64,000 nt of DNA, taken from a virus. Below, one piece after another: positions 4,788 to 41,462 of the stretch. Within the stretch, counting starts at the first letter, position 1, and every line of letters begins with the position of its first letter. The position numbers and the translations under genes are program-made. The stretch covers positions 2,644-66,643 of the IMG/VR virus record IMGVR_UViG_3300042691_043155. The stretch is one strand, 5' to 3'. The notes below the pieces were generated by a model that was not told the DNA's origin, searched no databases, and was given only the letters and a program-made list of their open reading frames with translations.

Positions 4788-6707
4788 ATGAGTTTATTAA
4801 GCACGATAAAAAAAGACTTTACCCAAGGTGATAAAGATATTTCTTTACAGGAATTTTTAGAACTTTGTAAAAAGGATAAAGTTTATTCTTCACCAGCTGA
4901 GAGAATGTTACAAGCTATTGGTGAACCAGAAGTAGTTGATACTAAGCTAGATGAAAGACTTAGTAGAATTTACTCTAACAAATTAATTAAAAGATATCCA
5001 GCATTCTCGGAATTCTTTGGAATGGAAGATACTATTGAACAAATTGTTTCTTTCTTTAGACACGCAGCTCAAGGATTAGAAGAAAAGAAACAAATTCTTT
5101 ACCTTTTAGGACCAGTTGGTGGTGGTAAATCTTCTTTAGCAGAAAGATTAAAACAACTAATGGAAAAAAGTCATATTTATGTGCTTGTTGCTGACGGTGA
5201 AGTTTCACCGGTATTTGAGAACCCACTTGGATTATTTTCTTCTTATAGAGAAGAATTAGAAAAGGAATATGGTATTCCAAAAAGATATATTCCTTCTTGT
5301 GCTTCTCCATGGGCTACTAAAAGATTAGCTGAGTTTGATGGTGATGTAACTAAGTTCTCAGTTAGAAAATTAAAAATGTCTATCGCATCTCAAGTAGGTA
5401 TCGCTAAAACTGAACCAGGTGATGAAAACAACCAAGATATCTCAGCTTTAGTTGGTAAAGTAGATATCCGTAAATTGGCTGAGTTTCCACAAAATGATGC
5501 TGATGCTTATAACTACTCTGGTGCTCTTTGTAGAGCTAATCAAGGTATGATGGAATTCGTAGAGATGTTTAAAGCTCCTATCAAAGTTTTACACCCACTA
5601 TTAACTGCTACTCAAGAAGGTAACTTTAATGGTACTGAAAACTTACCAGCTATTCCGTTCCAAGGGATTATTTTAGCTCACTCAAATGAGTCTGAATGGG
5701 AAACATTCTCAAACGATAAAAAGAACGAAGCTTTCTTAGACCGTGTTTACATTGTAAGAGTTCCTTATTGTTTAAGAGTTGATGAAGAAGTTGAAATCTA
5801 TGAAAAACTTTTAAAACATTCTTCTTTATCTGAAGCACCTTGTGCACCACAAACTTTAGACTTGTTGGCTAAGTTTTGTGTTATGACAAGATTAAAACAC
5901 CCTGAGAACTCAAATTTATACTCTAAAATGAGAGTTTATAATGGTGAATCTTTAAAAGAATCTGATCCTAAAGCAAAATCTTTACAAGAATATAAAGATG
6001 ACGCGGGTATCACAGAAGGTATGAATGGTATTTCTACTCGTTTCGCTTTTAAAGTTCTTTCTAAAGTATTTAATCACGACACTGAAGAAGTTGCTGCTAA
6101 CCCAGTACACCTTTTCTATGTGTTAGAAAATGAAATTGTTAAATTACAATTACCAAAAGAAACTGAAGAATACTACTTAAATATCTTAAAGTCTAAAATC
6201 AGTACAAAATATGCTGAGTTTATTGGTGATGAAATTCAAAAAGCTTATGTAGATTCTTATCAAGAATATGGACAAAACTTATTTGAAAGATATATCACTT
6301 ATGCTGACCACTGGTGTCAAGATAATGACTTTAGAGATCCAGAAACAGGACAACAATTTGATAGAGCTGCTCTTAACGAAGAGTTAGAGAAAATTGAAAA
6401 ACCAGCTGGTATCGCTAATCCAAAAGATTTCAGAAATGATGTTGTACAATTCTATTTAAGACATAGAGCTAAGAATGGTGAATCACCAACTTGGGATTCT
6501 TATGAGAAAATTAGAAGTGTGATTGAAAAGAGAATTTTTTCTAAAACTGAAGATATCATTCCAGTTATTTCTTTCACTTCTAAAGCTTCTAAAGACGAAG
6601 AAAAGAAACATTCAGAATTCATCAATAGAATGAAGGATAGAGGATACACTAACAAACAGATTAAGTTATTAACTGACTGGTATCTAAGAGTTAGAAAATC
6701 AAATTAA
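4788..6707 (+). CDS. prkA: PrkA/YeaG family AAA+ ATPase ('serine protein kinase')
   Basis: GLEEKKQILYLLGPVGGGKSSLAE Walker A; EFVEMFKAPIKVLHPLLTATQEG; AHSNESEW. Confidence 0.97.
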   Translation: MSLLSTIKKDFTQGDKDISLQEFLELCKKDKVYSSPAERMLQAIGEPEVVDTKLDERLSRIYSNKLIKRYPAFSEFFGMEDTIEQIVSFFRHAAQGLEEKKQILYLLGPVGGGKSSLAERLKQLMEKSHIYVLVADGEVSPVFENPLGLFSSYREELEKEYGIPKRYIPSCASPWATKRLAEFDGDVTKFSVRKLKMSIASQVGIAKTEPGDENNQDISALVGKVDIRKLAEFPQNDADAYNYSGALCRANQGMMEFVEMFKAPIKVLHPLLTATQEGNFNGTENLPAIPFQGIILAHSNESEWETFSNDKKNEAFLDRVYIVRVPYCLRVDEEVEIYEKLLKHSSLSEAPCAPQTLDLLAKFCVMTRLKHPENSNLYSKMRVYNGESLKESDPKAKSLQEYKDDAGITEGMNGISTRFAFKVLSKVFNHDTEEVAANPVHLFYVLENEIVKLQLPKETEEYYLNILKSKISTKYAEFIGDEIQKAYVDSYQEYGQNLFERYITYADHWCQDNDFRDPETGQQFDRAALNEELEKIEKPAGIANPKDFRNDVVQFYLRHRAKNGESPTWDSYEKIRSVIEKRIFSKTEDIIPVISFTSKASKDEEKKHSEFINRMKDRGYTNKQIKLLTDWYLRVRKSN

Positions 6708-6752
6708 TAAAAAGGGAGTTTATCTCCCTTTTTTAAAATATAATAATATGAT

Positions 6753-6872
6753 ATGCCACTTCCTCATTATGCTTATAACTATAATAGATATTTAGTTATG
6801 AATCGTAGAAGAAAAATTAAAAAAATTTATAAAGATGTCAATAAATATAGTAGATCGAAGAAAGAGTCCTAA
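6753..6872 (+). CDS. 39-aa small ORF with NRRRKIKKIY motif (not in ORF track)
   Basis: MPLPHYAYNYNRYLVMNRRRKIKKIYKDVNKYSRSKKES; motif matches end of 17338-17520. Confidence 0.45.
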   Translation: MPLPHYAYNYNRYLVMNRRRKIKKIYKDVNKYSRSKKES

Positions 6873-8100
6873 GGGAAAATCTTCGGAAAATAGACAAAGA
6901 TTATTAAAAAGAATTGAAGGTCAAATTAAAAAGGCTCTTCCTGACATCGTTAAGAATACCAATGTTAAAGATTTGACATCTTCAAAAGAAAGAGTTAATA
7001 TCCCAGTCAAAGGCATTAATGAACCACAATTCACTTATGATAAAGATACTGGTGATAAAAAACATGTACATCCTGGTAACAAAGAATATTCAGAAGGTGA
7101 TTTAATAAAAAAACCAAAAAGTGGTCAAGGTAAAGGTAGTGGTCAAGGTAAAGGATCAAATGATCCAAATGCTACAGAAGATGACTTTACTGTATCAATA
7201 AGTCGAGAAGAATTCTTAGATTACTTTTTCAATGATCTAGAATTACCAGATATGGTTAAAAAACATTTAAACTCTATTGTTGATTTTAAACAAAAAAGAG
7301 CTGGTTATTCTAACTATGGTAATCCAAGTAGATTAAATATAACTCGTTCATATAAAAACTCAATGGCTCGTAGGATGGCTGTTGGTATGTTTTTCGATAA
7401 AAAGATTAAAGAAATTGAAGAAAAATTAAAGTCTGATTTATTAGATGATGAGAGAAATGAATTACTTAAAGAATTAGATAAGCTAAAAAAGATGAAGTTA
7501 TCAGTTTCTTTTATGGAGGAAGTTGATTTACAATATAATAACTTTGAGAAAGTTGCTATACCAGTTACTTCAGCTGTTATGTTTTGTGTAATGGACGTTT
7601 CTGGTTCAATGGGTGAGAAAGAGAAAGATATAGCTAAAAGATTTTTTATGTTATTATATATGTTTCTTACAAAACAATATGAGAAAATTGAGATTGTCTT
7701 TATAAGACACCATACTTCAGCAAAAGAAGTTACTGAGGATGAATTCTTTAACTCTAAAGAAAGTGGTGGTACCGTTGTGGTAACTGCTTTAGAATTGATG
7801 GCAAAAATCATTAGAGAAAGATATAATGAAAACTGGAACATATACGCCGCTCAAGCCTCTGATGGTGATGTTTGGGATAAGGCAGATGCTAGTGATTGTT
7901 ATAAAATATTAGACGTTGATATATTAAACAAAGTTCAGTATATGACATATATCGAAATATGTAGAAGTGTAGATGGTGATCTTTGGAACAACTATAAGGT
8001 TTTATCTGATAAAAGAAAGAACTTTGAGATAGGTAAGATTAATGAAGTAAGTGAAATTTGGAAAGTATTCCAAGATTTCTTTAAAAAGAAAACAGCATGA
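6835..8100 (+). CDS. yeaH: YeaH/YhbH (DUF444) vWA-containing protein
   Basis: IVDRR..KS..NRQR; VHPGNKEY; AVMFCVMDVSGSM (MIDAS); FIRHHT; ESGGT; WNIYAAQASDGD. Confidence 0.95.
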   Translation: MSINIVDRRKSPKGKSSENRQRLLKRIEGQIKKALPDIVKNTNVKDLTSSKERVNIPVKGINEPQFTYDKDTGDKKHVHPGNKEYSEGDLIKKPKSGQGKGSGQGKGSNDPNATEDDFTVSISREEFLDYFFNDLELPDMVKKHLNSIVDFKQKRAGYSNYGNPSRLNITRSYKNSMARRMAVGMFFDKKIKEIEEKLKSDLLDDERNELLKELDKLKKMKLSVSFMEEVDLQYNNFEKVAIPVTSAVMFCVMDVSGSMGEKEKDIAKRFFMLLYMFLTKQYEKIEIVFIRHHTSAKEVTEDEFFNSKESGGTVVVTALELMAKIIRERYNENWNIYAAQASDGDVWDKADASDCYKILDVDILNKVQYMTYIEICRSVDGDLWNNYKVLSDKRKNFEIGKINEVSEIWKVFQDFFKKKTA

Positions 8101-9590
8101 TGACTAAAGAAGAATTAAAAAAATTATTTTCAAAACCTGATTGGACTGATGAAACTATTATAGAAGCTGATAAAGTTGTTAGTAGAATCGCTAGTGAATA
8201 TTTAGGTATTGAAACATATCCAAATCAATTTGAAATAATAACATCTGAACAAATGTTGGATGCTTATTCATTAATTGGTTTACCAATTTCTTATAATCAC
8301 TGGAAATTTGGTAAAGACTTTGTTATTAACTCAAATCAATATAAGAAAGGTAGAATGGGATTGGCTTATGAGTTAGTTATTAATTCAAATCCTTGTATAT
8401 CTTACAATATGGAAGATAACACAACTTGTCTTATGATCTTAGTATTAGCTCACGCCGCATACGGTCATAACACATTCTTTAAAAATAATTATCTTTTCAA
8501 ACAATGGACTCAGGCAGATTCAATCATTGATTATATGGTCTTTGCTAAAGAGTTTGTTGCTAAATGCGAAGAGAAATACGGATTTGAAGAGGTAGAAATG
8601 GTTTTAGATGCTTGCCACGCCTTAATGAACTATGGTGTTGATAAATATAAAAAACCTAGAAAATTAAGTCCAACTGAAGAAGGAGAAAGACTTAAAAAGA
8701 AATTAGAAGATGATAGAATTCTTTTAAATGATTTATGGAGAACTATTCCTAAAGATGAGAAAGAAAAACTTAAAGAAAAAAGATTTCCTGAATCACCGGA
8801 AGAAAATATTCTTTACTTCATTGAGAAAAACTCTCCTAAGTTGAGAGGGTGGCAAAGAGAAATTGTTAGAATTGTTAGAAAAACTGCTCAATACTTTTAC
8901 CCACAAGGTCAAACAAAAGTTATTAATGAAGGATGTGCTACTTTTACACACTATGAAATTATTAATAAAATGTTCGATGAAGGTTATTTATCAGACGGTT
9001 TTATGCAAGAGTTTTATCATAATCATTCTAATGTTATTTTTCAACCAGGATTTGACTCTAAGTTTTACTCTGGATTGAATCCATATACATTAGGGTTCAA
9101 TATCTTTCAAGATTTAAAAAGAATGTCTTTAAACCCAACTAAAGAAGATTTGGAATGGTTTCCTAAGATTGCTGGAAAAGGTAATTGGGCTGAAAACTTC
9201 AAATATATCGTTGAAAACTTTAAAGATGAAACATTTGTTTTACAATATCTTTCACCTAAGGTTATTAGAGATATGAAATTATTTGAAATTGATGATAAAA
9301 TGGATAATAACTATTATGAAGTTAGTTCTATACATAATGAGAATGGTTATAAAAAAGTAAGAGAATCTTTATCACAATCTTATAATAGAAGTAGATACGT
9401 ACCAGATATTCAAGTATATGATGTTGATATATTCGGAGATAGAACACTTACTTTAGAATATACACCTATTAATAATAAAGGTCTAGATTATAATGATATT
9501 AAAAAAGTTTTACCTCACGTTGAATATCTATGGGGATTCCCAGTTAGAATGACTGAAAATGGTAAAGAATTAGCAACTACAAAGAAATAA
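8097..9590 (+). CDS. spoVR: SpoVR/YcgB family protein
   Basis: YPNQFEIIT, HWKFGK, GLAYELVINSNPCISY, AHAAYGHNTFFKNN, YFYPQGQTKVINEG. Confidence 0.96.
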   Translation: MMTKEELKKLFSKPDWTDETIIEADKVVSRIASEYLGIETYPNQFEIITSEQMLDAYSLIGLPISYNHWKFGKDFVINSNQYKKGRMGLAYELVINSNPCISYNMEDNTTCLMILVLAHAAYGHNTFFKNNYLFKQWTQADSIIDYMVFAKEFVAKCEEKYGFEEVEMVLDACHALMNYGVDKYKKPRKLSPTEEGERLKKKLEDDRILLNDLWRTIPKDEKEKLKEKRFPESPEENILYFIEKNSPKLRGWQREIVRIVRKTAQYFYPQGQTKVINEGCATFTHYEIINKMFDEGYLSDGFMQEFYHNHSNVIFQPGFDSKFYSGLNPYTLGFNIFQDLKRMSLNPTKEDLEWFPKIAGKGNWAENFKYIVENFKDETFVLQYLSPKVIRDMKLFEIDDKMDNNYYEVSSIHNENGYKKVRESLSQSYNRSRYVPDIQVYDVDIFGDRTLTLEYTPINNKGLDYNDIKKVLPHVEYLWGFPVRMTENGKELATTKK

Positions 9591-11739: not shown

Positions 11740-12666
11740 ATGAATCGAGTAGGTTATTGTTGTATAAACATTTCTATAAATAATGGTAAGAAGAAAAAAG
11801 ACTTCATAACCGTAAATAGAGGAATGACTAAGAAAACCTTTGAAACAAAAGGTTTAGAATATGTCACTGAGTTAGCACTCTTGAATATAGATGATATGTT
11901 CAAGATTATAAAATGGAATAAGGAAAATGATATATTAGTTTACAGAATGTCTAGTGATATTCTACCTTGTATCGGATTCTATAAAATAGAAAATCTACCA
12001 AAATTTGATATAATATCAAAAAAGTTAAAAGAAATTGGTGACTATGCTAAAAGTGTAGATATGAGATTATCATTCCATCCAACCCACTTTTGTATACCTG
12101 CTAGTGAAAATCCAGTTGTAGTTAAAAACGCAATTGATGAATTAGATAAACATGCTCAAATTATGGATTTAATGGGTTTAGATCAAACTCACTATTATCC
12201 AATTAATATACACGTAAACACAACAAAACCAACCAGAGAAGAGGCAGCTGAAAGATTTTGTACTCAATTTTATAATTTAAGCGAGTCTTGTAGAAAGAGA
12301 TTAGTTGTTGAGAATGATGATGGACCTAACCAATACTCAACCAAAATGTTATATGATCTAATATATACTAAAATTGGTATTCCAATAACTCATGACTTTC
12401 ACCATCATAATTACGGACCACAAGATATTTCTCAAGAAGAGGCGATAAAACTTGCTTGTTCCACATGGGGTGATGTAAAACCAATGACTCACATTAGTTC
12501 ACCTAAAATATTAGAAGATGCAGCAGGCAGAGAAACAGCACACGCTGACTATATTTATGAAGAGATTCAAACGTTTGGTCTTGAATTTGATACAGAGATT
12601 GAAGCAAAAGCCAAAGATTTGGCGGTTATCAAGTATAGAAGTCAGTTTCAAGTACTCAAAGGCTAA
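11740..12666 (+). CDS. uvsE: UV DNA damage endonuclease UvsE/UvdE (start corrected to MNRVGYCC)
   Basis: GYCCIN, YRMSSD, RLSFHP, INIHV, RLVVENDD, HDFHHH, AHADY, EIEAKAKD. Confidence 0.95.
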   Translation: MNRVGYCCINISINNGKKKKDFITVNRGMTKKTFETKGLEYVTELALLNIDDMFKIIKWNKENDILVYRMSSDILPCIGFYKIENLPKFDIISKKLKEIGDYAKSVDMRLSFHPTHFCIPASENPVVVKNAIDELDKHAQIMDLMGLDQTHYYPINIHVNTTKPTREEAAERFCTQFYNLSESCRKRLVVENDDGPNQYSTKMLYDLIYTKIGIPITHDFHHHNYGPQDISQEEAIKLACSTWGDVKPMTHISSPKILEDAAGRETAHADYIYEEIQTFGLEFDTEIEAKAKDLAVIKYRSQFQVLKG

Positions 12667-19396: not shown

Positions 19397-20557
19397 TTAC
19401 TTACCCTCACCAGGTTTGTTGATTTTCTTGATTTTTCTTAACAATTCTTCGAATTGTAATAAGAAACCTTTCATCTTCTTGTTGTTGATGTCAGCCACGT
19501 TATCTAAAATCCATAACAAGTAAGCTGTTTTTTCATCATCTCCAACTCGTCCTAAGAACTTAACGATGTTACCCAATTGTTTCTCATTAAGTGTTGAGAT
19601 ATCAATTGCTTTTAAAGAGTGGATCAACTCAGAGTTTTTATCTCTGTTGTATTTTTCCAAATCTTTCTTAATACCATCGTAGTTGTTGATTACATCTTGA
19701 ATAGAGATATTCAACATATCTTCACAGTATTGGATGAACTTCATTGCTGAGTTACCAACGTAAGAGTGAGCTACTCTTTTTAAACTTGGTAAGAAGTCTC
19801 TTGGTGAAGCGTTTTTACCAAAGTTTCTTGTGATGAAACGTGATAACATTGTCCAAGAACGTGGTGTAGCGTATCCTTTAACGTTATCAGAAACTTTGTA
19901 GATTTGCTCTGGGTGAGTTTCGATATAAGAAACAATCAAGTTGTGACAGTTCTCTTTTGCGAAATCTTCAATCCATTCGTTTACCCCTAAAGAGTGGTCT
20001 ACGTGGATCAAACGGTTGTTCAAAGCCGCGTCAAACTCTTCTACGTCAGTACCATCTTCGTCACCTAAGTTACCAGATGCCATCATCAGTACGTTATCGT
20101 TGAATTTGAAATCACCAATTTCACGTTCAAGTAAGATTTGTAAAGCCGCGTTTCTTACGAATTGTGGAGCTCTGTTCAACTCTTCAAAGTGAATGATAGT
20201 TGGTTGTTGATTTGACTCGAAAGCCCATTTAGGAACTGCGTATCCAGATACTTTGTACATTTTACCATCGTACTCTAAATCCTCAAGGTAAGGGTACTTA
20301 AAGTCAGATTCATCAGACATTGATAAACGCATATCAAGGTATCTAAATCCTAACTTCTGTGCGATTGATAAACCAATTGCTGATTTAGCGACACCTGGTT
20401 TTGATGTAATGAAAAGTACACCATATTTCGGCCACATAATCGACAAATACTCTCTTTCTTTTTGTGTTAACAAATGTAATTTGTCTAACATCCATTGTGG
20501 CATCATACCTGGTTCTACTGTGTTGACTACATCAACTGTTAAATTATCCATACTCAT
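19397..20557 (-). CDS. MoxR-like AAA+ ATPase
   Basis: SKPGVAKS Walker A variant, IIHFEELNRA Walker B, ASGN, FDAALNNRL, ATPRSW. Confidence 0.9.
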   Translation of the reverse strand: MSMDNLTVDVVNTVEPGMMPQWMLDKLHLLTQKEREYLSIMWPKYGVLFITSKPGVAKSAIGLSIAQKLGFRYLDMRLSMSDESDFKYPYLEDLEYDGKMYKVSGYAVPKWAFESNQQPTIIHFEELNRAPQFVRNAALQILLEREIGDFKFNDNVLMMASGNLGDEDGTDVEEFDAALNNRLIHVDHSLGVNEWIEDFAKENCHNLIVSYIETHPEQIYKVSDNVKGYATPRSWTMLSRFITRNFGKNASPRDFLPSLKRVAHSYVGNSAMKFIQYCEDMLNISIQDVINNYDGIKKDLEKYNRDKNSELIHSLKAIDISTLNEKQLGNIVKFLGRVGDDEKTAYLLWILDNVADINNKKMKGFLLQFEELLRKIKKINKPGEGK

Positions 20558-20592
20558 TTTTTAAAATTGATTTTTTAATTTATAACTTTTAT

Positions 20593-20769
20593 TTATTTAA
20601 ACATTTTTCTGATTTGTTTACCAAGATCTTGGTCATTAGTAAAACTTTTACAGACATCAATATCTCTGTAAAGAGATCTTACTTTACTACCCAATTCCAT
20701 ATCATTGGAATATGAACGTCTTAGTTTTTTAATAACTTCAACATCATCAATTGAGAAAATTTCTACCAT
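20593..20769 (-). CDS. Small hypothetical protein (MVEIFSID...; start corrected)
   Basis: Internal repeat NDMELG/NDQDLG; the ORF track extension runs into a tRNA. Confidence 0.7.
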   Translation of the reverse strand: MVEIFSIDDVEVIKKLRRSYSNDMELGSKVRSLYRDIDVCKSFTNDQDLGKQIRKMFK

Positions 20770-20784
20770 AGTTTTATTTTTTAG

Positions 20785-20857
20785 TAGCGGAGGATGGATT
20801 CGAACCACCGACCTCAAGGTTATGAGCCTTGCGAGCTGACCACTGCTCTACTCCGCG
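20785..20857 (-). tRNA. tRNA-Met(CAT), initiator-like, copy 1
   Basis: Cloverleaf CGCGGAG..CAAGG-CTCATAA-CCTTG..GGTTCGAATCC; C1:U72 mismatch; no encoded CCA. Confidence 0.93.
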
Positions 20858-20866
20858 ATATTTTAG

Positions 20867-20952
20867 TAGCCTCATGTGGATTCGAACCACAGTCTTTAAG
20901 TCGAAAAACTTAATATCCTCACTCTTTCGAGTATCCGCTAGACGATGAAGCC
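20867..20952 (-). tRNA. tRNA-Glu-like with 8-nt anticodon loop (TTTTTCGA) and D-loop hairpin insertion
   Basis: GGCTTCA-TC-GTCT-AGCGGA[TACTC-GAAA-GAGTG]AGGAT-A-TTAAG-TTTTTCGA-CTTAA-AGAC-TGTGG-TTCGAAT-CCACA-TGAGGCT-A. Confidence 0.85.
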
Positions 20953-20962
20953 ATATTTTTAG

Positions 20963-21035
20963 TAGCGGAGGATGGATTCGAACCACCGACCTCAAGGTTA
21001 TGAGCCTTGCGAGCTGACCACTGCTCTACTCCGCG
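20963..21035 (-). tRNA. tRNA-Met(CAT), initiator-like, copy 2
   Basis: Identical to 20785-20857. Confidence 0.93.
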
Positions 21036-21043
21036 ATATTTAG

Positions 21044-21116
21044 TAGCCCTATGTGGATTCGAACCACAGTCTCTTAGTCGAAAAACTAAGTATCCTATCC
21101 GCTAGACGATAGAGCC
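21044..21116 (-). tRNA. tRNA-Glu-like with 8-nt anticodon loop (TTTTTCGA)
   Basis: GGCTCTA-TC-GTCT-AGCGGATA-GGAT-A-CTTAG-TTTTTCGA-CTAAG-AGAC-TGTGG-TTCGAAT-CCACA-TAGGGCT-A. Confidence 0.87.
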
Positions 21117-21122
21117 ATATTT

Positions 21123-21212
21123 GAGTGTTTTAACCAGGGGGTTACCTGAACACTCTTAATATCTACCAGGGGGTTACCTGGATTTTTAGTTGTGCCAGGG
21201 GGTTACCTGGAC
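21123..21212 (-). repeat. Three tandem CAGGTAACCCCCTGG hairpins inside the tRNA operon
   Basis: ccagggggttacctg at 21134, 21166, 21195 (+ strand). Confidence 0.85.
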
Positions 21213-21217
21213 TTTAG

Positions 21218-21305
21218 TAGCCTCATATGGATTCGAACCACAGTCTCTTAATCGAAAAATCAAGTATCCTAAGTGTTTTACAACACACCGCTAGACGATA
21301 AGGCT
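21218..21305 (-). tRNA. tRNA-Glu-like with 8-nt anticodon loop (TTTTTCGA) and D-loop hairpin insertion
   Basis: AGCCTTA-TC-GTCT-AGCGGT[GTGTT-GTAA-AACAC]TTAGGAT-A-CTTGA-TTTTTCGA-TTAAG-AGAC-TGTGG-TTCGAAT-CCATA-TGAGGCT-A. Confidence 0.85.
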
Positions 21306-21330
21306 CATAGGTCGCCATTTTTTATTTTTT

Positions 21331-21376
21331 CAAAGATACGGAAGATTTTTCAATCTACCAAATCTTTTTTAATTTC
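21331..21376 (-). promoter_or_regulatory. Bacteroidota-type sigma70 promoter cassette (-33 TTTG, -7 TATCTTTG)
   Basis: minus strand tttggtagattgaaaaatcttccgtatctttg; near-identical copy at 21785-21830, related copies at ~22008-22045, 22278-22310, 25529-25560. Confidence 0.8.
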
Positions 21377-21394
21377 AAAGAACGTTTTCTTTAG

Positions 21395-21478
21395 TAGCCC
21401 CATGTGGATTCGAACCACAGTCTCTCAGTCGAAGAACTGATTATCCTACCTCTTACGAGTCCGCTAGACGATAGGGCC
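21395..21478 (-). tRNA. tRNA-Glu-like with 8-nt anticodon loop (TTCTTCGA) and D-loop hairpin insertion
   Basis: GGCCCTA-TC-GTCT-AGCGGA[CTC-GTAA-GAG]GTAGGAT-A-ATCAG-TTCTTCGA-CTGAG-AGAC-TGTGG-TTCGAAT-CCACA-TGGGGCT-A. Confidence 0.85.
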
Positions 21479-21523
21479 ATATTTGATTCTGTTAGTCTAA
21501 GCTAAACTACCAGAATACTGGTG

Positions 21524-21606
21524 TTGGAAGGGAGGGATTCGAACCCCCGTACCCTTGCGAGAACAGATTTACAGTCTGTCGGTTTTAACCACTCACCCAC
21601 CTTCCA
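21524..21606 (-). tRNA. tRNA-Tyr(GTA)
   Basis: ACAGA-CTGTAAA-TCTGT anticodon arm, long variable arm TCTC-GCAA-GGG, GGGGGTTCGAATCCCTC. Confidence 0.92.
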
Positions 21607-21695
21607 AGGTTAAAAAAAATAGAGCCAAATCTAACTGACATCCTTCACCGTAAACTAGACGATACTTCGTGTTTTATTTAAACTATCTATTTTAG

Positions 21696-21767
21696 TAGTC
21701 CATAGGAGGATCGAACTCCTATTTTCAGGATGAAAACCTGATATCCTAACCATTAGATGAATGGACC
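21696..21767 (-). tRNA. tRNA-Glu(TTC), canonical 7-nt loop
   Basis: GGTCCAT..TCAGG-TTTTCAT-CCTGA..AGGAG-TTCGATC-CTCCT-ATGGACT-A. Confidence 0.92.
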
Positions 21768-21784
21768 ATTTTTATTTCTTTTAT

Positions 21785-21830
21785 CAAAGATAAGGAAGAT
21801 TTTTCAATCTACCAAATCTTTTTTAATTTC
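21785..21830 (-). promoter_or_regulatory. Bacteroidota-type promoter cassette (copy)
   Basis: 46-bp near-identical repeat of 21331-21376. Confidence 0.8.
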
Positions 21831-21959
21831 TTTTGATTACCCAACCACTCACGTCCTTTTACTCTTGTGGTTAAAGGTCTTGCGGACCACCATAACGGGT
21901 TTGTCATACTAGGAAGACGCTCAGTACACAAACCTTGCTCCTCTCTGAGGTAATCAAAA
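21831..21959 (-). ncRNA. Candidate multi-stem structured RNA
   Basis: Closing stem TTTTGATTACC/GGTAATCAAAA with three internal hairpins; GC-rich in an AT-rich background; no ORF. Confidence 0.6.
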
Positions 21960-21969
21960 ATGTAATATT

Positions 21970-21998
21970 TCAAAGAACTTGTATCAGACGTTTCTGAT
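21970..21998 (-). promoter_or_regulatory. boxB-like hairpin plus boxA-like GTTCTTTGA (antitermination leader)
   Basis: ATCAGA-AACG-TCTGAT followed by AAGTTCTTTGA immediately downstream of the promoter at ~22008; second GTTCTTTGA at 21375-21383. Confidence 0.55.
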
Positions 21999-22045
21999 TT
22001 TGTTTTACAAAGATAAGTAATCTTTTTTAATCTACCAAATCTTTT

Positions 22046-22273
22046 TTATAATCTTTTTCTAACAAATGAATCTACATAATAAACAACTGAAGATCTAACT
22101 TCATCAGACATACCTTTTTCCATAACTCCCTTCTTAACAAGTTTGTTACAAGCTTTTATCTCTTCTGATGTTAAAAGCTTTCTCAAAACACTGGTATCTC
22201 CAAAGTTAATTAAAAAATCTCTTTCTTCTTTTGAAAGTCCCTTAATAACTGATGTAATCTCTTCGTTTATCAT
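22046..22273 (-). CDS. Small hypothetical protein (possible winged-helix)
   Basis: 75-aa ORF directly behind a promoter cassette. Confidence 0.7.
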   Translation of the reverse strand: MINEEITSVIKGLSKEERDFLINFGDTSVLRKLLTSEEIKACNKLVKKGVMEKGMSDEVRSSVVYYVDSFVRKRL

Positions 22274-22310
22274 AAATCAAAGATAAGGATACTTTTTTAA
22301 TCTACCAAAT

Positions 22311-22766
22311 TTATATTAAATAAATGTCACCTGATCCAGGTCTAAACTTTTGTAAGTTTCTTATAGCTGAAGAACTTATATGTGAGAACTCTTCATCACA
22401 TCGAAAGAAAACAACATTTATATCCTTCTTAAAATCCTTAATGAATTTAATCTGGTTATCCTCATAATCTAAGTCATTACCATTTCTTAAACCACGAACA
22501 ATAACAACATTGTACCCGTCTACTTCTTTCTGTTCGATAAACTCATGTAAGAAAGAAGAATAAACCTCAACTGGTCTTTGTAACTTATTACCAATTTCTT
22601 CTGCTCTGATAACAGAAGTAACTGCTGAGTTTTCTTTATCTGTATTTATACCAATCGCAATTAAAACATTACCTTCACCAAAAACTTTCTCAGCCTTTTG
22701 AACAATATTCAAGTGACCTAAGTGAAAGGGATTAAAAGAACCTGGGTAAATTGCTAATGTTTTCAT
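22311..22766 (-). CDS. coaD: Phosphopantetheine adenylyltransferase-like cytidylyltransferase family protein
   Basis: AIYPGSFNPFHLGH, IVRGLRNGNDLDYE, SHISSSAIR. Confidence 0.88.
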   Translation of the reverse strand: MKTLAIYPGSFNPFHLGHLNIVQKAEKVFGEGNVLIAIGINTDKENSAVTSVIRAEEIGNKLQRPVEVYSSFLHEFIEQKEVDGYNVVIVRGLRNGNDLDYEDNQIKFIKDFKKDINVVFFRCDEEFSHISSSAIRNLQKFRPGSGDIYLI

Positions 22767-23194
22767 AATAATTTTTTTAACTTACGATCTCTAATATATG
22801 AGATTAGATTTCTAACATGCCAACTTTGCTTGAATTCATCATCTTTAATATAGAAACATAATTTTTCAAATACAAAATCATCAATTTCTTCCCACTTTTC
22901 TTCTAAAGTTGTAGACCAAGACCAAGCATCAGATCCACTGGATTCAGTTTTACAATAAATATTAGATTTTATTTCTTTTACTAAATTCCAACTACTAATG
23001 TATATTTTCAATGATTGTTCATTAAATTGATTTTTTGTGAAATCTTCATAGTCACAAATAATACATGGAAATACCAAATCTGTTTTATTCAACATATAAG
23101 TATTTGAACTCCGTTTATATTCATTTATCAAATTGTTTAATGGTTCGGGATCACCTATCCGTATAACAATTGATTTACTTACTACTTCCATCAT
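22763..23194 (-). CDS. Hypothetical protein, C-terminal IRDRKLKKLL tag
   Basis: 143-aa ORF. Confidence 0.75.
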   Translation of the reverse strand: MMEVVSKSIVIRIGDPEPLNNLINEYKRSSNTYMLNKTDLVFPCIICDYEDFTKNQFNEQSLKIYISSWNLVKEIKSNIYCKTESSGSDAWSWSTTLEEKWEEIDDFVFEKLCFYIKDDEFKQSWHVRNLISYIRDRKLKKLL

Positions 23195-23204
23195 TGAGAT
23201 TTAG

Positions 23205-23275
23205 CACGGGTACCAAGATTCGAACTCGGAACAACGGTTTTGGAGACCGGCATGATACCATTTCACTATACCCGT
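23205..23275 (-). tRNA. tRNA-Trp(CCA)
   Basis: ACGGGTA..CCGGT-CTCCAAA-ACCGT..CCGAG-TTCGAAT-CTTGG-TACCCGT-G. Confidence 0.92.
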
Positions 23276-23281
23276 GTAACC

Positions 23282-23366
23282 ATGTATGATACCACCGTGT
23301 AAAGTTTCATCACCAGTATCTAATACCTGGGAGAGGAAGAGCTTTTCCACTACTACTCTCATACAT
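23282..23366 (-). ncRNA. Candidate small structured RNA upstream of tRNA-Trp
   Basis: Closing stem ATGTATGA/TCATACAT, internal GGAA/TTCC and CCAG-GTAT/ATAC-TGG hairpins; follows TATATTTG promoter (~23375-23382). Confidence 0.4.
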
Positions 23367-23461
23367 TTCTTATACAAATATAAGCTTTATTTGTTTATAA
23401 ACAACAAAGGAGGTATATATTTTTTAATATATAGTTAAGTGGGAAAAAATAATACTTAACT

Positions 23462-24004
23462 ATGAAAAAAGAAGAACTAGAAAAATATATCAATGAAGGT
23501 ATATCATTAAATCAAATATCAAAAGAAACATGTAAATCTTTAACTACAATAAGGTACTGGGTAAATAAGTATGATCTAAAATCAAACTTTGTTACTTTTA
23601 AAGACCAAGTTAAAACAGAATATGGTGAAACCAGATTTTGTCCAAGATGTGGAAAATATGTTGAAACTAAAAACTTCCATCAGAGAAGAGGAAAAGAAAA
23701 TGGATCATCATATTGCAAACCTTGTACAACTGATCAAACTTTAGAAAGAATGAGAAAATTAAAAAGTCAAATGGTTGAATATAAAGGTGGATGTTGTGTT
23801 AGATGTGGATATAATAAATATATGGGTGCTCTTGAGTTTCACCATTTAGATCCAAGTGAAAAAGATTTTAACCCATCACATTTAAGAAAATATAAGTTTG
23901 ATGATAGAGCTAAAATGGAGTTAGATAAATGTGTTTTAGTTTGTTCAAATTGTCATAGAGAAATACATCACGAACTTAAACAAAAAGAAAAAGAGACACT
24001 TTAG
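23462..24004 (+). CDS. HNH homing endonuclease with N-terminal HTH
   Basis: YKGGCCVRCGY..ALEFHHLDP..ELDKCVLVCSNCHREIH. Confidence 0.92.
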   Translation: MKKEELEKYINEGISLNQISKETCKSLTTIRYWVNKYDLKSNFVTFKDQVKTEYGETRFCPRCGKYVETKNFHQRRGKENGSSYCKPCTTDQTLERMRKLKSQMVEYKGGCCVRCGYNKYMGALEFHHLDPSEKDFNPSHLRKYKFDDRAKMELDKCVLVCSNCHREIHHELKQKEKETL

Positions 24005-24018
24005 AGTGTCTCTTTTTT
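23989..24018. terminator. Bidirectional terminator
   Basis: aaaagagacact-ttag-agtgtctctttttt. Confidence 0.8.
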
Positions 24019-24021
24019 GAG

Positions 24022-24096
24022 TGATTCCGGATGGACTCAAACCATCGACCTATTCATTAGAAGTGAATTGCTACTATTCAACTGAGCTACGGAACC
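24022..24096 (-). tRNA. tRNA-Arg(TCT)
   Basis: GGTTCCG..ATTCA-CTTCTAA-TGAAT..GATGG-TTTGAGT-CCATC-CGGAATC-A. Confidence 0.88.
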
Positions 24097-24152
24097 AAAT
24101 GAGGGTTATTCGAACTCCCTCAAACTTTTTTATATCATGATACAAAGTATCG

Positions 24153-24226
24153 TGGTCCAGTCAGGACTCGAACCTGAGACTTCAACATTATGAGTGTCGC
24201 ACTCTAACCAACTGAGTTACAAGACC
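24153..24226 (-). tRNA. tRNA(CAT), Ile2 or elongator Met
   Basis: GGTCTTG..CGACA-CTCATAA-TGTTG..TCAGG-TTCGAGT-CCTGA-CTGGACC-A. Confidence 0.9.
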
Positions 24227-24366
24227 TAAAGTAGGGAGGCGTCGTCCAGTACGTTACTGAACTACTCCCTCTGGTTACGTTATTTGTTCATTACTATTGT
24301 AACTCAAATAAGAGGCTTGACCAGGCACCATTTGAAAAAAGTGAGAGTATCAACCACACTCTCACA

Positions 24367-24855
24367 TCAGAGTGTAAAATGCTTTGAAAAATCAAAGTCT
24401 CTTACTAAATTTTTTCTTTTAAGACTTCCAATGCCATTATCTTGTACAATCCATATTAAATCTTTCAATCCAGAGATATACTCTTGAATCTTAGGATCTA
24501 AATCTTTAACAAAGGATTCATCACCCGCTATTGACTCAGTATATCTTTTCTTGATACCATCAATCTTAACGTAATATTTTTCACCAGATTTATAAAAGGG
24601 ATAATCATTTACATCTTCAATACAGGTATAAAGTTTGAATTCGCCATTTTCAATTGCTTTGGAGATGGCTTCATCTTCTTCTTTTTCCATCTGATCTCTT
24701 AGATCTTTTAGTTGTGCTCGATACTCTTGAATTTCTTCTTTGTATTCTCTCACATCTAATCCAGAGTCTAATAGTTTAATTAGTATGTTTTGTTTTTCCT
24801 CAGGAGAACTTGAGTTTTCAAATTCTCCTTTGAATGTTTCATACGTGTATTCCAT
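24367..24855 (-). CDS. Hypothetical protein
   Basis: 162-aa ORF. Confidence 0.78.
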   Translation of the reverse strand: MEYTYETFKGEFENSSSPEEKQNILIKLLDSGLDVREYKEEIQEYRAQLKDLRDQMEKEEDEAISKAIENGEFKLYTCIEDVNDYPFYKSGEKYYVKIDGIKKRYTESIAGDESFVKDLDPKIQEYISGLKDLIWIVQDNGIGSLKRKNLVRDFDFSKHFTL

Positions 24856-24866
24856 AGTCTTATTTA

Positions 24867-25490
24867 TTACCCTTTGATAACTTCAACGTTTTTGATTGCT
24901 ACTACTGGTTTAACAGTTTCCATCATTTCAGTAACTTCACCATATTGTTTGAACTTATCAATTGTACCTTTAGCCACAGAGTAAGTTGTAACAGCTTTGA
25001 TAATTTTTTCTCTATCAGACTCTTTAATCTCGTCACAGTTTTCGATTAAAGAAGAAAGGATTTCACCATATTTCTCGATCATTGTTTCGTCGAAAGAGAA
25101 TACTGTTTTTTCTTCAACGATATCTTCACCATAAGCTTCTTTCAATTCTTCAGCTCTTTCTTCGTTGATAGAGATATATTTGTCTGTAGCCAAAAACATG
25201 AACTGTGAAGTTGACCCACTTTCATTCTCTTGACAAATCATTACTGATTCTGGGTTTTTCTTAGTCTTCTCATACTCAGCTGCCCACAATTCTTTAGCGA
25301 TGTCTTTCAATTCATCTGAAATCAAATCAGCTTTAGCTTTAGCAGATTTCATAGTTTCTTGCAAAGACTCCAATTTCTCAACTTTTTCGAAGAAAGTTGG
25401 ATCTTCAACAACTAATCTTACTTTCTTATCTTTCGCTGAAGTTTTCTTAACTGGTGTTGATTTTTTCGCCTTGTCAAATAAAGAAGCCAT
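24867..25490 (-). CDS. Hypothetical protein (start corrected to MASLFDKAKK), likely early gene
   Basis: Host-type promoter cassette at 25529-25560 lies inside the ORF-track extension. Confidence 0.8.
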   Translation of the reverse strand: MASLFDKAKKSTPVKKTSAKDKKVRLVVEDPTFFEKVEKLESLQETMKSAKAKADLISDELKDIAKELWAAEYEKTKKNPESVMICQENESGSTSQFMFLATDKYISINEERAEELKEAYGEDIVEEKTVFSFDETMIEKYGEILSSLIENCDEIKESDREKIIKAVTTYSVAKGTIDKFKQYGEVTEMMETVKPVVAIKNVEVIKG

Positions 25491-25678
25491 AATATAAAGT
25501 TTTAAAGTTATTTTCTGTTTCTGTTTATCAAAGATAAGGAGACTTTTATATTTTACCAAACTTTTTAGAAACTTTTTTTAATTTCTTTTTGTCGGTATGT
25601 CTCTCTCACATTGACAATACAAATATAAGGAACTTTTATAAATAACCAAGGGGATACATGAGATTTAATATATAAATT

Positions 25679-27710: not shown

Positions 27711-28064
27711 TTACCATTTACCTTCTTTTAATAATTGTTCTCTTGGTTCCAATTCAATTCCATTTTCAACCCAATAGTTCCAATTTATCATCAATTTATT
27801 TGAGTTATAATTCAATGCTGAACCATCATTTCTCTTTATATGAGACATAATAGATTCTGTCCAAATTGAGAAGTGATCGTATTCATTTTTACCACAACCA
27901 CATGCTGTGGCTCTGCCGTTGTCAAACTCCCAAACAAGTGGTCTTAATCCACAATTTGGACAAGGTGACCAACTCTCTGGGTTTTTTGGTATTTCATAAG
28001 CAGATATACATTTATATTTACCTTGTAGTATATCTAATTTTATATCTCTTACAACTTGAATCAT
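27711..28064 (-). CDS. Zn-ribbon protein (CPNCG...CGC, Lar-like)
   Basis: WSPCPNCGLRP..FDNGRATACGC. Confidence 0.7.
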   Translation of the reverse strand: MIQVVRDIKLDILQGKYKCISAYEIPKNPESWSPCPNCGLRPLVWEFDNGRATACGCGKNEYDHFSIWTESIMSHIKRNDGSALNYNSNKLMINWNYWVENGIELEPREQLLKEGKW

Positions 28065-41390: not shown

Positions 41391-41462
41391 TGCGAATAAT
41401 GGGATTCGAACCCATGACTTAGAGTTTTAGAGGCTCCTACTCTACCACTGAGTTATATTCGC
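41391..41462 (-). tRNA. Amber suppressor tRNA (anticodon CTA)
   Basis: GCGAATA-TA-ACTC-AGTGGTA-GAGT-A-GGAGC-CTCTAAA-ACTCT-AAGTC-ATGGG-TTCGAAT-CCCAT-TATTCGC-A; own TATATTTG promoter at 41475-41482. Confidence 0.88.

What the first reader, a model, noticed from the sequence alone, without database searches (positions are those of the whole stretch)
20867..21478. Four tRNA-Glu-like genes with a conserved 8-nt anticodon loop: natural quadruplet/+1-frameshift tRNAs?
Seen: four cloverleaves (20867-20952, 21044-21116, 21218-21305, 21395-21478, minus strand) with Glu-type bodies (TCGTCTAGCGG..AGGAT, 4-nt variable loop). All have 8-nt anticodon loops: TTTTTCGA three times and TTCTTCGA once. The flanking stems differ but keep pairing (TTAAG/CTTAA, CTTAG/CTAAG, CTTGA/TTAAG, ATCAG/CTGAG), so the extra base is conserved across diverged copies and is unlikely to be a sequencing error or decay. 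A normal tRNA-Glu(UUC) with a 7-nt loop sits in the same cluster (21696-21767). Known: 8-nt-loop tRNAs such as Salmonella sufA/sufJ cause +1 frameshift suppression. Inference: UUUC and CUUC could decode GAAA and GAAG as Glu, giving phage-programmed +1 recoding. Alternatively these RNAs are decoys or nuclease-resistant tRNAs against anticodon-nuclease defences, or GluRS sponges.
Basis: partly seen in the sequence, partly recalled or inferred. Interest (0 to 1): 0.93.

Follow-up and report, generated by a model that had tools for sequence, protein, structure and literature searches.

The report
Phage glutamate-tRNA look-alikes, closed anticodon loop
A lake phage carries four real genes for glutamate-tRNA look-alikes with one extra base in the anticodon loop; they belong to a widespread, apparently undescribed family that more likely mimics tRNA than reads four-letter codons.

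Summary
Four paralogous Glu-type tRNA-like genes lie on the minus strand at 20867-20952, 21044-21116, 21218-21305 and 21395-21478. Their anticodon loops are UUUUUCGA (three) and UUCUUCGA (one). An independent DNA run carries the same sequences. Three copies also have a hairpin in the D-loop.

The extra base is a family trait. I collected 41 distinct anticodon arms of this type from phages, metagenomes and a few Planctomycetota genomes. All read N-U-N-UUC-R-N', and the first and last loop bases can pair in 41 of 41. The arm is therefore effectively 6 bp closing a hexaloop.

Related huge phages carry the same Glu scaffold with anticodon arms that cannot decode. In 9 of 10 records that hold GOLLD RNA, these genes lie beside it. 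This window has no GOLLD.

Quadruplet (+1) decoding gains no genomic support. GAA-A and GAA-G are not avoided, and no gene in the window needs a +1 shift at them.

My best reading (about 0.45) is a tRNA-Glu mimic that is processed like a tRNA and is probably still recognised through UUC, but is not a normal decoder. Function is not shown.

This scan had already found the same family on other DNA. My literature searches found no description of it.

The parts
20867..20952 (-). Copy A. Glu-type tRNA-like gene, 86 nt. D-loop hairpin ACTC-GAAA-GAGT at 20921-20932. Loop UUUUUCGA at 20901-20908.
   Evidence: 109.1 bits with covariance model R1. Partial Rfam tRNA match of 23.3 bits. Sequence checked. 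Covered with 0 differences by DNA run X6.
21044..21116 (-). Copy B. Glu-type tRNA-like gene, 73 nt, no D-loop insert. Loop UUUUUCGA at 21078-21085.
   Evidence: Rfam tRNA 48.6 bits with a 1-nt loop insertion. ARAGORN calls it tRNA-??? (tt). R1 gives 94.4 bits.
21218..21305 (-). Copy C. Glu-type tRNA-like gene, 88 nt, with an A1-U72 acceptor pair. D-loop hairpin GTGTT-GTAA-AACAC at 21273-21286. Loop UUUUUCGA at 21252-21259.
   Evidence: R1 gives 98.7 bits. Sequence checked. The X6 contig has an 11-nt deletion at 21303, which would give the acceptor GGCCTTA in that strain (my reading of the flank).
21395..21478 (-). Copy D. Glu-type tRNA-like gene, 84 nt. D-loop hairpin CTC-GTAA-GAG at 21450-21459. 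Loop UUCUUCGA at 21429-21436. The 27-43 pair is an A.G mismatch.
   Evidence: R1 gives 103.1 bits. Sequence checked.
21696..21767 (-). Ordinary tRNA-Glu(UUC) with the 7-nt loop UUUUCAU, in the same array.
   Evidence: ARAGORN. Rfam 60.3 bits.
20785..20857 (-). tRNA-Met(CAU), downstream of copy A. It is identical to the copy at 20963-21035.
20963..21035 (-). tRNA-Met(CAU), between copies B and A.
   Evidence: A tRNA-Met also lies within the Glu-like arrays in 6 of the 9 related loci scanned.
21524..21606 (-). tRNA-Tyr(GUA), normal loop, upstream of copy D.
21331..21362 (-). Promoter-like element TTTGGTAGATTGAAAAATCTTCCGTATCTTTG, upstream of copy C. It probably starts the unit C - three hairpins - B - Met - A - Met.
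   Evidence: It is one of five near-identical elements. Naming it a Bacteroidota-type -33/-7 promoter rests on recall.
21785..21816 (-). The same promoter-like element, upstream of tRNA-Glu. It probably starts the unit Glu - remnant - Tyr - copy D.
21134..21210 (-). Three direct copies of the hairpin CCAGG-UAACCC-CCUGG, between copies C and B.
   Evidence: 3 matches, 0 expected. One more copy lies in the tRNA array of phage LR745206.

Best explanation
The four genes belong to a conserved, mostly phage-borne family of RNAs derived from tRNA-Glu.

Shown:
- They keep the whole tRNA body: acceptor stem with G1.U72 and A73, D-stem, G18G19, 4-nt variable loop and T-arm.
- They keep U33, UUC and a purine at position 37.
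- They have one extra base between U33 and UUC.
- The two outer loop bases form a covarying pair, so the arm is 6 bp closing the hexaloop U-N-U-U-C-R.

Inferred:
- They are transcribed with tRNA-Met and tRNA-Tyr from host-type promoters.
- They are cut out like tRNAs and given CCA, which the genes do not encode.
- They are still recognised through the Glu body and UUC.
- The closed loop, and in three copies a hairpin at the tRNA elbow, keep them from working as ordinary decoders.

My commitment: they act as tRNA-Glu mimics. Either they are a decoy or competitor for a host or phage factor that recognises the anticodon arm of tRNA-Glu (an anticodon-directed nuclease, GluRS or a modification enzyme), or they partner the GOLLD RNA module that accompanies the family in related phages. 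They are not tools for programmed four-base decoding.
For: 1. The genes are real and under selection.
- The four copies score 94-109 bits with model R1.
- Compensatory changes keep the anticodon stems and the D-loop hairpins paired.
- An independent DNA run carries the same sequences.

2. The loop is a defined motif.
- I collected 41 distinct arms. Most came from a pattern that fixed TTTTCG but left the flanking bases free.
- The loop ends read CG 22, UA 16, UG 2, GC 1 and unpaired 0 of 41.
- The helix covariation score is 1.19 against 0.29 in shuffles, and 0 of 500 shuffles reach it.
- Among 13 normal 7-nt-loop tRNA-Glu genes of the same phage loci, only 2 have pairable 32/38 bases.

3. Sister genes have non-decoding arms.
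- The same scaffold in G011, G018, G022 and G031 carries long hairpins capped by UUCG, loops of 9-25 nt, or 7-nt loops with non-Glu triplets.

4. The family is not a codon supplement.
- Records G039, G040 and G042 show the variant and no normal tRNA-Glu at E <= 1e-4.

5. The family is linked to GOLLD.
- GOLLD is present in 10 of 42 records.
- In 9 of those 10, Glu-like genes lie within about 1.5 kb of it, often 8-14 nt from its 3' end.

6. The genome shows no adaptation to +1 reading.

7. Recalled, not checked here: a Watson-Crick 32-38 pair weakens ribosomal A-site binding (Olejniczak and Uhlenbeck, work on tRNA-Ala GGC).
Against: - No expression, processing or charging data exist. Contigs of the three RNA runs did not usefully cover the four genes.
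- U33, UUC and R37 are exactly what a working anticodon loop needs, so decoding is not excluded, whether in frame or by four bases.
- An 8-nt loop can decode triplets: yeast mitochondrial tRNA-Thr1 does (PMC3113583, passages read).
- One relative (L074:1501) combines a D-loop hairpin with a normal 7-nt Glu loop, so the hairpin alone does not mark a non-decoder.
- This window, and the 66.6-kb record it comes from, has no GOLLD. The record is only 23% of a genome.
- No partner protein or nuclease has been identified.
- A few Planctomycetota genomes carry the same loop on a chromosomal gene beside housekeeping genes. A phage-defence story does not explain that.
Confidence: 0.45

Rival explanations
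1. They are working tRNA-Glu that read GAA/GAG in frame. The remodelled loop (extra base, G37, closed 32-38 pair), the varied anticodon stems and the elbow hairpin make them insensitive to a host factor that cuts or modifies normal tRNA-Glu. The phage then keeps translating after host tRNA-Glu is disabled.
For: - U33, UUC, R37 and the Glu body are strictly kept.
- GAA is 6.2% of codons in the window: 1135 of about 18,300.
- Some phage records have only this form of tRNA-Glu.
- In L105 the variant sits in a 14-gene tRNA array where a Glu member would be expected.
- 8-nt loops can read triplets (PMC3113583).
- Phage tRNAs are known to escape anticodon nucleases through loop changes (PMC10264068; abstract from the search listing, and a term search of the text).
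Against: - No tRNA-Glu-directed nuclease is known to me or was found in the papers I searched.
- A closed 32-38 pair on a weak A/U-rich anticodon should weaken decoding (recalled).
- Sister copies in the same arrays lack any anticodon.
- The window already has a normal phage tRNA-Glu.
Confidence: 0.25
2. They are natural four-base decoders: UUUC and CUUC read GAAA and GAAG as Glu and shift the frame by +1, giving phage-programmed recoding.
For: - The extra base sits directly 5' of UUC and after an invariant U33, where a fourth anticodon base would be.
- It is U in most copies, C in copy D, A in L071:1375 and G in L094:1526.
- Inserted loop bases cause +1 suppression in SufB2 and SufJ (abstracts only, from the search listing).
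Against: - GAA-A (40.3%) and GAA-G (29.7%) are not avoided. That leaves roughly 800 such sites in 83 ORFs.
- No ORF pair in the window needs a +1 shift at GAAA or GAAG: 9 of 235 candidate junctions, none enriched. Eight lie at normal gene boundaries; the GAAG site at 27725 was not matched to a listed ORF boundary.
- The loop ends pair in 41 of 41 arms.
- Chromosomal copies in Planctomycetota coexist with a normal tRNA-Glu in 5 of 5 genomes. A constitutive frameshifter there would be costly.
- Only 23% of this phage genome is available, so a target gene elsewhere is not excluded.
Confidence: 0.13
3. They are processing signals. As tRNA-shaped elements they recruit RNase P and 3' tRNA-end nucleases to cut a long transcript into its parts (GOLLD in relatives; tRNA-Met and the hairpin RNAs here), as mascRNA does for MALAT1. 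They would have no role of their own.
For: - In relatives they lie 8-14 nt after the GOLLD 3' domain (L071, L073, L086). In G003 and G007 they flank GOLLD on both sides.
- The anticodon end is free to vary across the family.
Against: - Any tRNA would serve as a processing signal. That does not explain the strict N-U-N-UUC-R-N' loop across distant phages and bacteria, the fixed Glu body, or four copies here without GOLLD.
Confidence: 0.1
4. They are decaying duplicates of the phage tRNA-Glu gene, that is, pseudogenes created by slippage in the T-run.
For: - An extra T in a run of T is an easy mutation.
- A truncated fifth copy lies at about 21630-21672.
Against: - The same loop, with covarying closing pair and G37, recurs in 41 distinct arms from many lineages.
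- Stems and hairpins keep pairing through compensatory changes.
- Acceptor stems pair in 7 of 7 positions in 24 of the 25 insert-bearing family genes.
Confidence: 0.03

Closest known systems
Canonical bacterial and phage tRNA-Glu(UUC) (Rfam RF00005)
   Same: - Same cloverleaf body: U8, G18G19, T-loop UUCGAAU, 4-nt variable loop AGAC.
- U11-A24 and U13.G22 in the D-stem.
- UUC in the loop.
- G1.U72 and A73, like the normal phage tRNA-Glu next door.
   Different: - 8-nt loop with an extra base before UUC.
- G instead of A at position 37.
- Loop ends that pair.
- A 10-14-nt hairpin in the D-loop of three copies.
- Only copy B passes the Rfam threshold.
+1 frameshift-suppressor tRNAs with 8-nt loops (Salmonella SufB2, SufA6, SufJ)
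   Same: One base is inserted in the anticodon loop next to the anticodon, so a four-base complement to a codon plus one base is possible.
   Different: - Those are laboratory suppressor mutants. These are conserved natural genes in many copies.
- Here the 32-38 bases form a covarying pair.
- No target genes and no avoidance of GAAR were found.
Yeast mitochondrial tRNA-Thr1(UAG), with a natural 8-nt anticodon loop
   Same: It is a natural, conserved tRNA with an enlarged 8-nt loop, and it shows that such loops can work on ribosomes (PMC3113583, passages).
   Different: - That tRNA is the only reader of its codons and reassigns them.
- Here a normal tRNA-Glu is present as well, and sister genes lack anticodons.
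tRNAs and pseudo-tRNAs in and around GOLLD RNA (Rfam RF02032)
   Same: - GOLLD is known to lie in phage tRNA islands, downstream of tRNA-Met, sometimes with a tRNA in its linker (bioRxiv 10.1101/2024.12.08.627333, PMC12990946 and PMC6582537; passages read).
- In relatives the Glu-like genes touch GOLLD.
   Different: - Those papers, in the passages I read, do not describe a Glu-derived family with D-loop hairpins and remodelled anticodon arms.
- This window has the family but no GOLLD.
mascRNA and other tRNA-like processing elements
   Same: A tRNA-shaped RNA with an anticodon arm that does not decode, next to a large non-coding RNA.
   Different: - mascRNA is eukaryotic, single-copy and lacks a conserved anticodon-like motif (recalled).
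- Here UUC and its neighbours are strictly kept.
Phage tRNAs with anticodon-loop changes that escape anticodon nucleases (T5 and others)
   Same: Phage-encoded tRNA variants whose differences cluster in the anticodon arm (PMC10264068, abstract; PMC11464382, abstract).
   Different: - Those keep 7-nt loops and are shown to decode.
- No insertion or D-loop hairpin is reported there. A term search of PMC10264068 for 'insertion' and 'Glu' found nothing.

Membership tests
Canonical tRNA (Rfam RF00005) / tRNA-Glu | Score at or above the Rfam gathering threshold of 29 bits | tested here: inconclusive
   Copy B scores 48.6 bits. Copy A scores a partial 23.3 bits, below threshold. Copies C and D are not reported at E <= 1.
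Canonical tRNA (Rfam RF00005) / tRNA-Glu | Seven-base anticodon loop with U33, a three-base anticodon and a purine at 37 | tested here: not met
   All four copies have eight bases between the 5-bp stem strands. ARAGORN reports a non-triplet anticodon for copy B.
Canonical tRNA (Rfam RF00005) / tRNA-Glu | Glu body elements: U11-A24, U13.G22 with A46, no base 47, and UUC (the E. coli GluRS identity set, recalled) | tested here: met
   The sequence shows GUCU/AGGAU D-stem pairing, the variable loop AGAC and UUC in all four copies. A37 is replaced by G.
Canonical tRNA (Rfam RF00005) / tRNA-Glu | Aminoacylation with glutamate and use on the ribosome | not testable with these tools
   This needs charging assays or tRNA-seq.
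+1 frameshift-suppressor / quadruplet-decoding tRNAs | Extra base in the anticodon loop giving a four-base complement | tested here: met
   UUUC and CUUC follow U33. Across the family the base is U, C, A or G.
+1 frameshift-suppressor / quadruplet-decoding tRNAs | Genes or sites that depend on the +1 reading, or a genome adapted to it | tested here: not met
   GAA-A and GAA-G are not avoided. None of the 6 GAAA and 3 GAAG junction candidates is enriched, and eight of the nine lie at ordinary gene boundaries. Only the 64-kb window was tested.
+1 frameshift-suppressor / quadruplet-decoding tRNAs | Measured +1 frameshifting | not testable with these tools
   This needs a reporter assay.
Phage tRNA-Glu mimics of the GOLLD locus (family named only in this scan's earlier notes) | Glu-type tRNA body with a conserved acceptor and T-arm | tested here: met
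   Model R1, built from the four copies, finds the elongated relatives at 37-62 bits.
Phage tRNA-Glu mimics of the GOLLD locus (family named only in this scan's earlier notes) | Hairpin inserted in the D-loop after G18G19 | tested here: met
   Three of the four copies have it. So do 25 of 55 distinct 8-nt-loop family genes, capped mostly by UUCG, UUUA or GNRA loops.
Phage tRNA-Glu mimics of the GOLLD locus (family named only in this scan's earlier notes) | Anticodon arm remodelled away from a 7-nt loop | tested here: met
   The arm is an 8-nt loop, or 6 bp plus a hexaloop.
Phage tRNA-Glu mimics of the GOLLD locus (family named only in this scan's earlier notes) | Position beside GOLLD RNA | tested here: not met
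   No GOLLD in the window at the gathering score, none at E <= 1 in 20000-25000, and none in the 66.6-kb record. The record is 23% complete.

The most novel reading that the evidence does not exclude
The loop U33-N-UUC-R37, held in shape by a Watson-Crick 32-38 pair, is a natural four-base anticodon. Phages, and a few Planctomycetota, would then carry dedicated tRNA-Glu that read GAAN as one step, with N matched by U, C, A or G in different genes. That would give programmed or conditional +1 recoding at sites still to be found in the parts of these genomes that I could not search.
Probability: 0.12. Interest if true: 0.95.

Novelty: new variant of a known kind. Interest (0 to 1): 0.7.

Why it matters
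This is a conserved, multi-copy tRNA derivative that standard tRNA finders miss or mislabel.

It matters in either reading:
- If these RNAs are mimics, they point to an unrecognised conflict or regulation centred on tRNA-Glu. Through their relatives they also give a concrete handle on the unknown function of the cage-forming GOLLD RNA.
- If they decode, they would be the first natural family of 8-nt-loop tRNAs outside organelles, and possibly natural quadruplet readers.

The defined motif (N-U-N-UUC-R-N' on a Glu body) and the genes listed here make both ideas directly testable with in vitro transcripts.

Tried and rejected
1. Exact patterns taken from the four copies found nothing outside this genome in IMG/VR. 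The family had to be reached through a covariance model and a looser pattern.

2. RNA evidence. Three metatranscriptome runs (X18-X20) held only small shares of the stretch. Their contigs did not usefully cover the four genes. No conclusion on expression or splicing of the inserts can be drawn.

3. The idea that the D-loop inserts or long anticodon arms are introns. I saw no bulge-helix-bulge or group I features by eye, and no joints in the reads. It remains untested.

4. The idea that UUUUCG pairs with a conserved CGAAAA in GOLLD.
- The GOLLD internal loop at that place reads CGAAAA, UGAAAA, CGAAAG or AGAAAG in different phages.
- It does not covary with the tRNA loop. Dropped.

5. The idea that UUCGA in the loop forms a T-loop, or that UUCG forms a tetraloop closed by the third loop base. 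The G..C and C..G classes do not fit. Dropped.

6. Neighbours of the chromosomal copies in Planctomycetota. They are leuA-like, polysaccharide-export and HEAT-repeat genes, and give no functional hint.

7. Distribution of the chromosomal form.
- 0 of 400 other genomes sampled across that phylum have it.
- 7 of 31 genomes in the genus of G045 have it.
- It is therefore not a general bacterial trait.

8. The sigma-70 promoter and terminator scanner was not used. I searched the host-type TTTG...TAnnTTTG motif instead: 9 matches against 4.2 expected, and 4 of 100 shuffles reached 9.

9. Literature searches found no description of Glu-type tRNAs with this loop or with D-loop hairpins.
Full report
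**What is there**

The window comes from a 66.6-kb fragment of an uncultured virus, estimated at 23% of a genome. Its G+C content is 25-33%. Topoisomerase IV subunit A links it to phage contigs of up to about 600 kb, at 50-83% identity over 64 loci. Runs that hold the stretch are freshwater and lake metagenomes from several studies, with two 'fungus metagenome' labels among the best holders.

On the minus strand, between 20785 and 21767, lies an array of RNA genes in this order:
- tRNA-Glu(UUC)
- a truncated Glu-like remnant
- tRNA-Tyr
- copy D
- a promoter-like element
- copy C
- three small hairpins
- copy B
- tRNA-Met
- copy A
- tRNA-Met

The four copies align at 85% mean column identity. 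They share a Glu-type body: acceptor stem with G1.U72 (A1-U72 in copy C), U8, D-stem GUCU/AGGAU, G18G19, variable loop AGAC, T-arm UGUGG-UUCGAAU-CCACA and A73, with no encoded CCA. Standard tools see only copy B. ARAGORN calls it 'tRNA-??? (tt)' and Rfam gives it 48.6 bits with one inserted loop base.

The loops are UUUUUCGA three times and UUCUUCGA once. Contigs of DNA run X6, from another study, reproduce copies A, B and C without a base difference inside the genes. The one exception is an 11-nt deletion at the 5' edge of copy C. The same run covers copy D within a piece that has two differences.

Copies A, C and D each carry a short hairpin inserted after G18G19A in the D-loop. The hairpins are capped by GAAA or GUAA and have different but paired stems. 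This explains the lengths of 84-88 nt and why the tRNA finders fail.

**The family**

I built covariance model R1 from the four copies. It found matches in 16 of 38 related phage records. Many matches are 85-116 nt long, lie in clusters of two to six, and have the same Glu body.

Their anticodon arms fall into two kinds:
- The first kind resembles the window, with 8-nt loops: CUUUUCGG, UUUUUCGA, CUUUUCAG, CUAUUCAG and UUGUUCAA.
- The second kind cannot decode Glu, or cannot decode at all. It includes long hairpins capped by UUCG, loops of 9-25 nt, and 7-nt loops reading UCG or UAG.

I then searched with a pattern that fixed only the Glu D-arm, TTTTCG and the T-loop. It found 6 loci in IMG/VR, 32 in metagenome contigs and 13 in species genomes. 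All 13 are Planctomycetota MAGs.

Together these searches gave 55 distinct full genes and 41 distinct anticodon arms. The arm is always N-U-N-UUC-R-N'.
- U33 and UUC are invariant.
- The base before UUC is mostly U, but C, A or G each occur once.
- Position 37 is G in 38 arms and A in 3.
- The first and last loop bases read CG 22, UA 16, UG 2 and GC 1, and never fail to pair.

The search pattern did not constrain those two outer bases, so this is real covariation. For comparison, among 13 ordinary 7-nt-loop tRNA-Glu genes in the same phage loci, only 2 have pairable 32/38 bases. The arm is therefore better described as six pairs closing a hexaloop.

D-loop inserts are present in 25 of the 55 genes. 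They fold into one or two hairpins capped mostly by UUCG, UUUA or GNRA loops. A tRNA-Tyr-like gene in one relative (L071:112-197) has the same loop design around GUA.

**Context in relatives**

Rfam finds GOLLD RNA, the large phage RNA that forms cages and has no known function, in 10 of 42 records. In 9 of those 10, Glu-like genes lie within about 1.5 kb of it.
- In L071, L073 and L086 they start 8-14 nt after its 3' domain.
- In G003 and G007 they flank it on both sides.
- In G011, G018, G031 and G039 they precede its 5' domain.

A tRNA-Met lies within the array in 6 of the 9 related loci scanned, as in this window.

Papers on GOLLD note its place in tRNA islands, downstream of tRNA-Met, and occasional embedded tRNAs or a 'pseudo tRNA' (passages read). 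I found no description of this Glu-derived family in eight literature searches.

The window itself has no GOLLD.

**Test of the quadruplet idea**

If UUUC and CUUC read GAAA and GAAG with a +1 shift, one of two things should show. Either the phage avoids those quadruplets in frame, or some genes need the shift.
- In 83 non-overlapping ORFs, GAA occurs 1135 times. It is followed by A in 40.3% and by G in 29.7% of cases, against 38.1% and 29.1% after all codons. There is no avoidance.
- A scan for places where one frame closes and the +1 frame opens found 235 candidates over all quadruplets.
- Six of these are at GAAA and three at GAAG. Eight of the nine lie at ordinary gene boundaries, though the two GAAG sites at 12559 and 12601 are looser than the rest. 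The count is no higher than for other A-rich quadruplets.

This covers only the window, and three quarters of the genome is missing.

The chromosomal copies in Planctomycetota coexist with a normal tRNA-Glu in 5 of 5 genomes checked. They sit among housekeeping genes. They are confined to a narrow group: 0 of 400 other genomes sampled across the phylum, and 7 of 31 in one genus.

**Reading**

What is shown:
- a selected, widespread RNA design on a tRNA-Glu body;
- a closed 8-nt loop that keeps UUC;
- frequent elbow hairpins;
- sister genes without anticodons;
- a tie to GOLLD in relatives.

What is inferred:
- maturation like a tRNA;
- recognition through UUC and the Glu body;
- poor or no ordinary decoding.

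My probabilities are:
- about 0.45 that these are tRNA-Glu mimics, acting as decoys or competitors for a factor that reads the tRNA-Glu anticodon arm, or as partners of the GOLLD module;
- 0.25 that they are in-frame decoders hardened against such a factor;
- 0.13 that they are true +1 or quadruplet readers;
- the remainder on processing signals or decay.

None of these is tested by experiment.

This scan had already noted the same family on other genomes and reached a similar 'mimic beside GOLLD' reading. I reached the GOLLD link independently, before reading those notes. This report adds four things:
- the defined loop motif with its covarying closing pair;
- its presence on bacterial chromosomes;
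- the negative codon-context and frameshift tests;
- a case of the family without GOLLD.

Noticed in passing
window 21134-21210 (-): Three direct copies of a small hairpin, CCAGG-UAACCC-CCUGG, lie between copies C and B. There are none elsewhere in the window. One similar copy lies in the tRNA array of the 635-kb phage LR745206 (L001 2821-2836). Function unknown.
   Followed up: partly
window about 21630-21672 (-): A truncated fifth Glu-like copy lies between tRNA-Glu and tRNA-Tyr. Only the acceptor 5' strand and the D-arm (UAUCGUCUAG...AGGAU) are recognisable, and a T-run follows.
   Followed up: partly
window 21331-21362, 21785-21816, 22008-22039, 22278-22309, 25529-25560 (-): Five near-identical promoter-like elements read TTTGGTA(G/A)A...TTATCTTTG. 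The same element precedes tRNA-Met and GOLLD in relatives L071 and L086. It fits the Bacteroidota-type -33/-7 motif as I recall it, which hints at the host.
   Followed up: partly
window 21831-21959 (-): A structured RNA of about 130 nt lies downstream of the promoter-like element at 22008-22039 and upstream of tRNA-Glu. The predicted fold is -40 kcal/mol for 141 nt. No Rfam match at E <= 1.
   Followed up: partly
L071:112-197 and L086:237-323: Class II (Tyr-like) tRNA genes in GOLLD arrays of relatives also have a 6-bp stem with a 6-nt loop: G-UAGUAA-C and G-UUGGUG-C. The loop remodelling is therefore not limited to the Glu scaffold.
   Followed up: partly
L150-L162 (Planctomycetota MAG contigs): A chromosomal Glu-type tRNA gene with loop UUUUUCG(G/A) and G1.U72 lies near leuA-like genes in a subset of one Pirellulaceae genus. 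In the five genomes checked it sits alongside a normal tRNA-Glu.
   Followed up: partly
window 41391-41462 (-): ARAGORN reports a tRNA with anticodon CUA (an amber suppressor, labelled Pyl). Rfam tRNA score 69.8 bits.
   Followed up: no
window 4788-9590 (+): The phage carries a prkA - DUF444 (yeaH-like) - spoVR gene trio with very strong Pfam matches.
   Followed up: no
window 21303 region: In DNA run X6 a strain variant lacks 11 nt at the 5' edge of copy C. That would restore the GG start of the acceptor stem seen in the other copies.
   Followed up: partly
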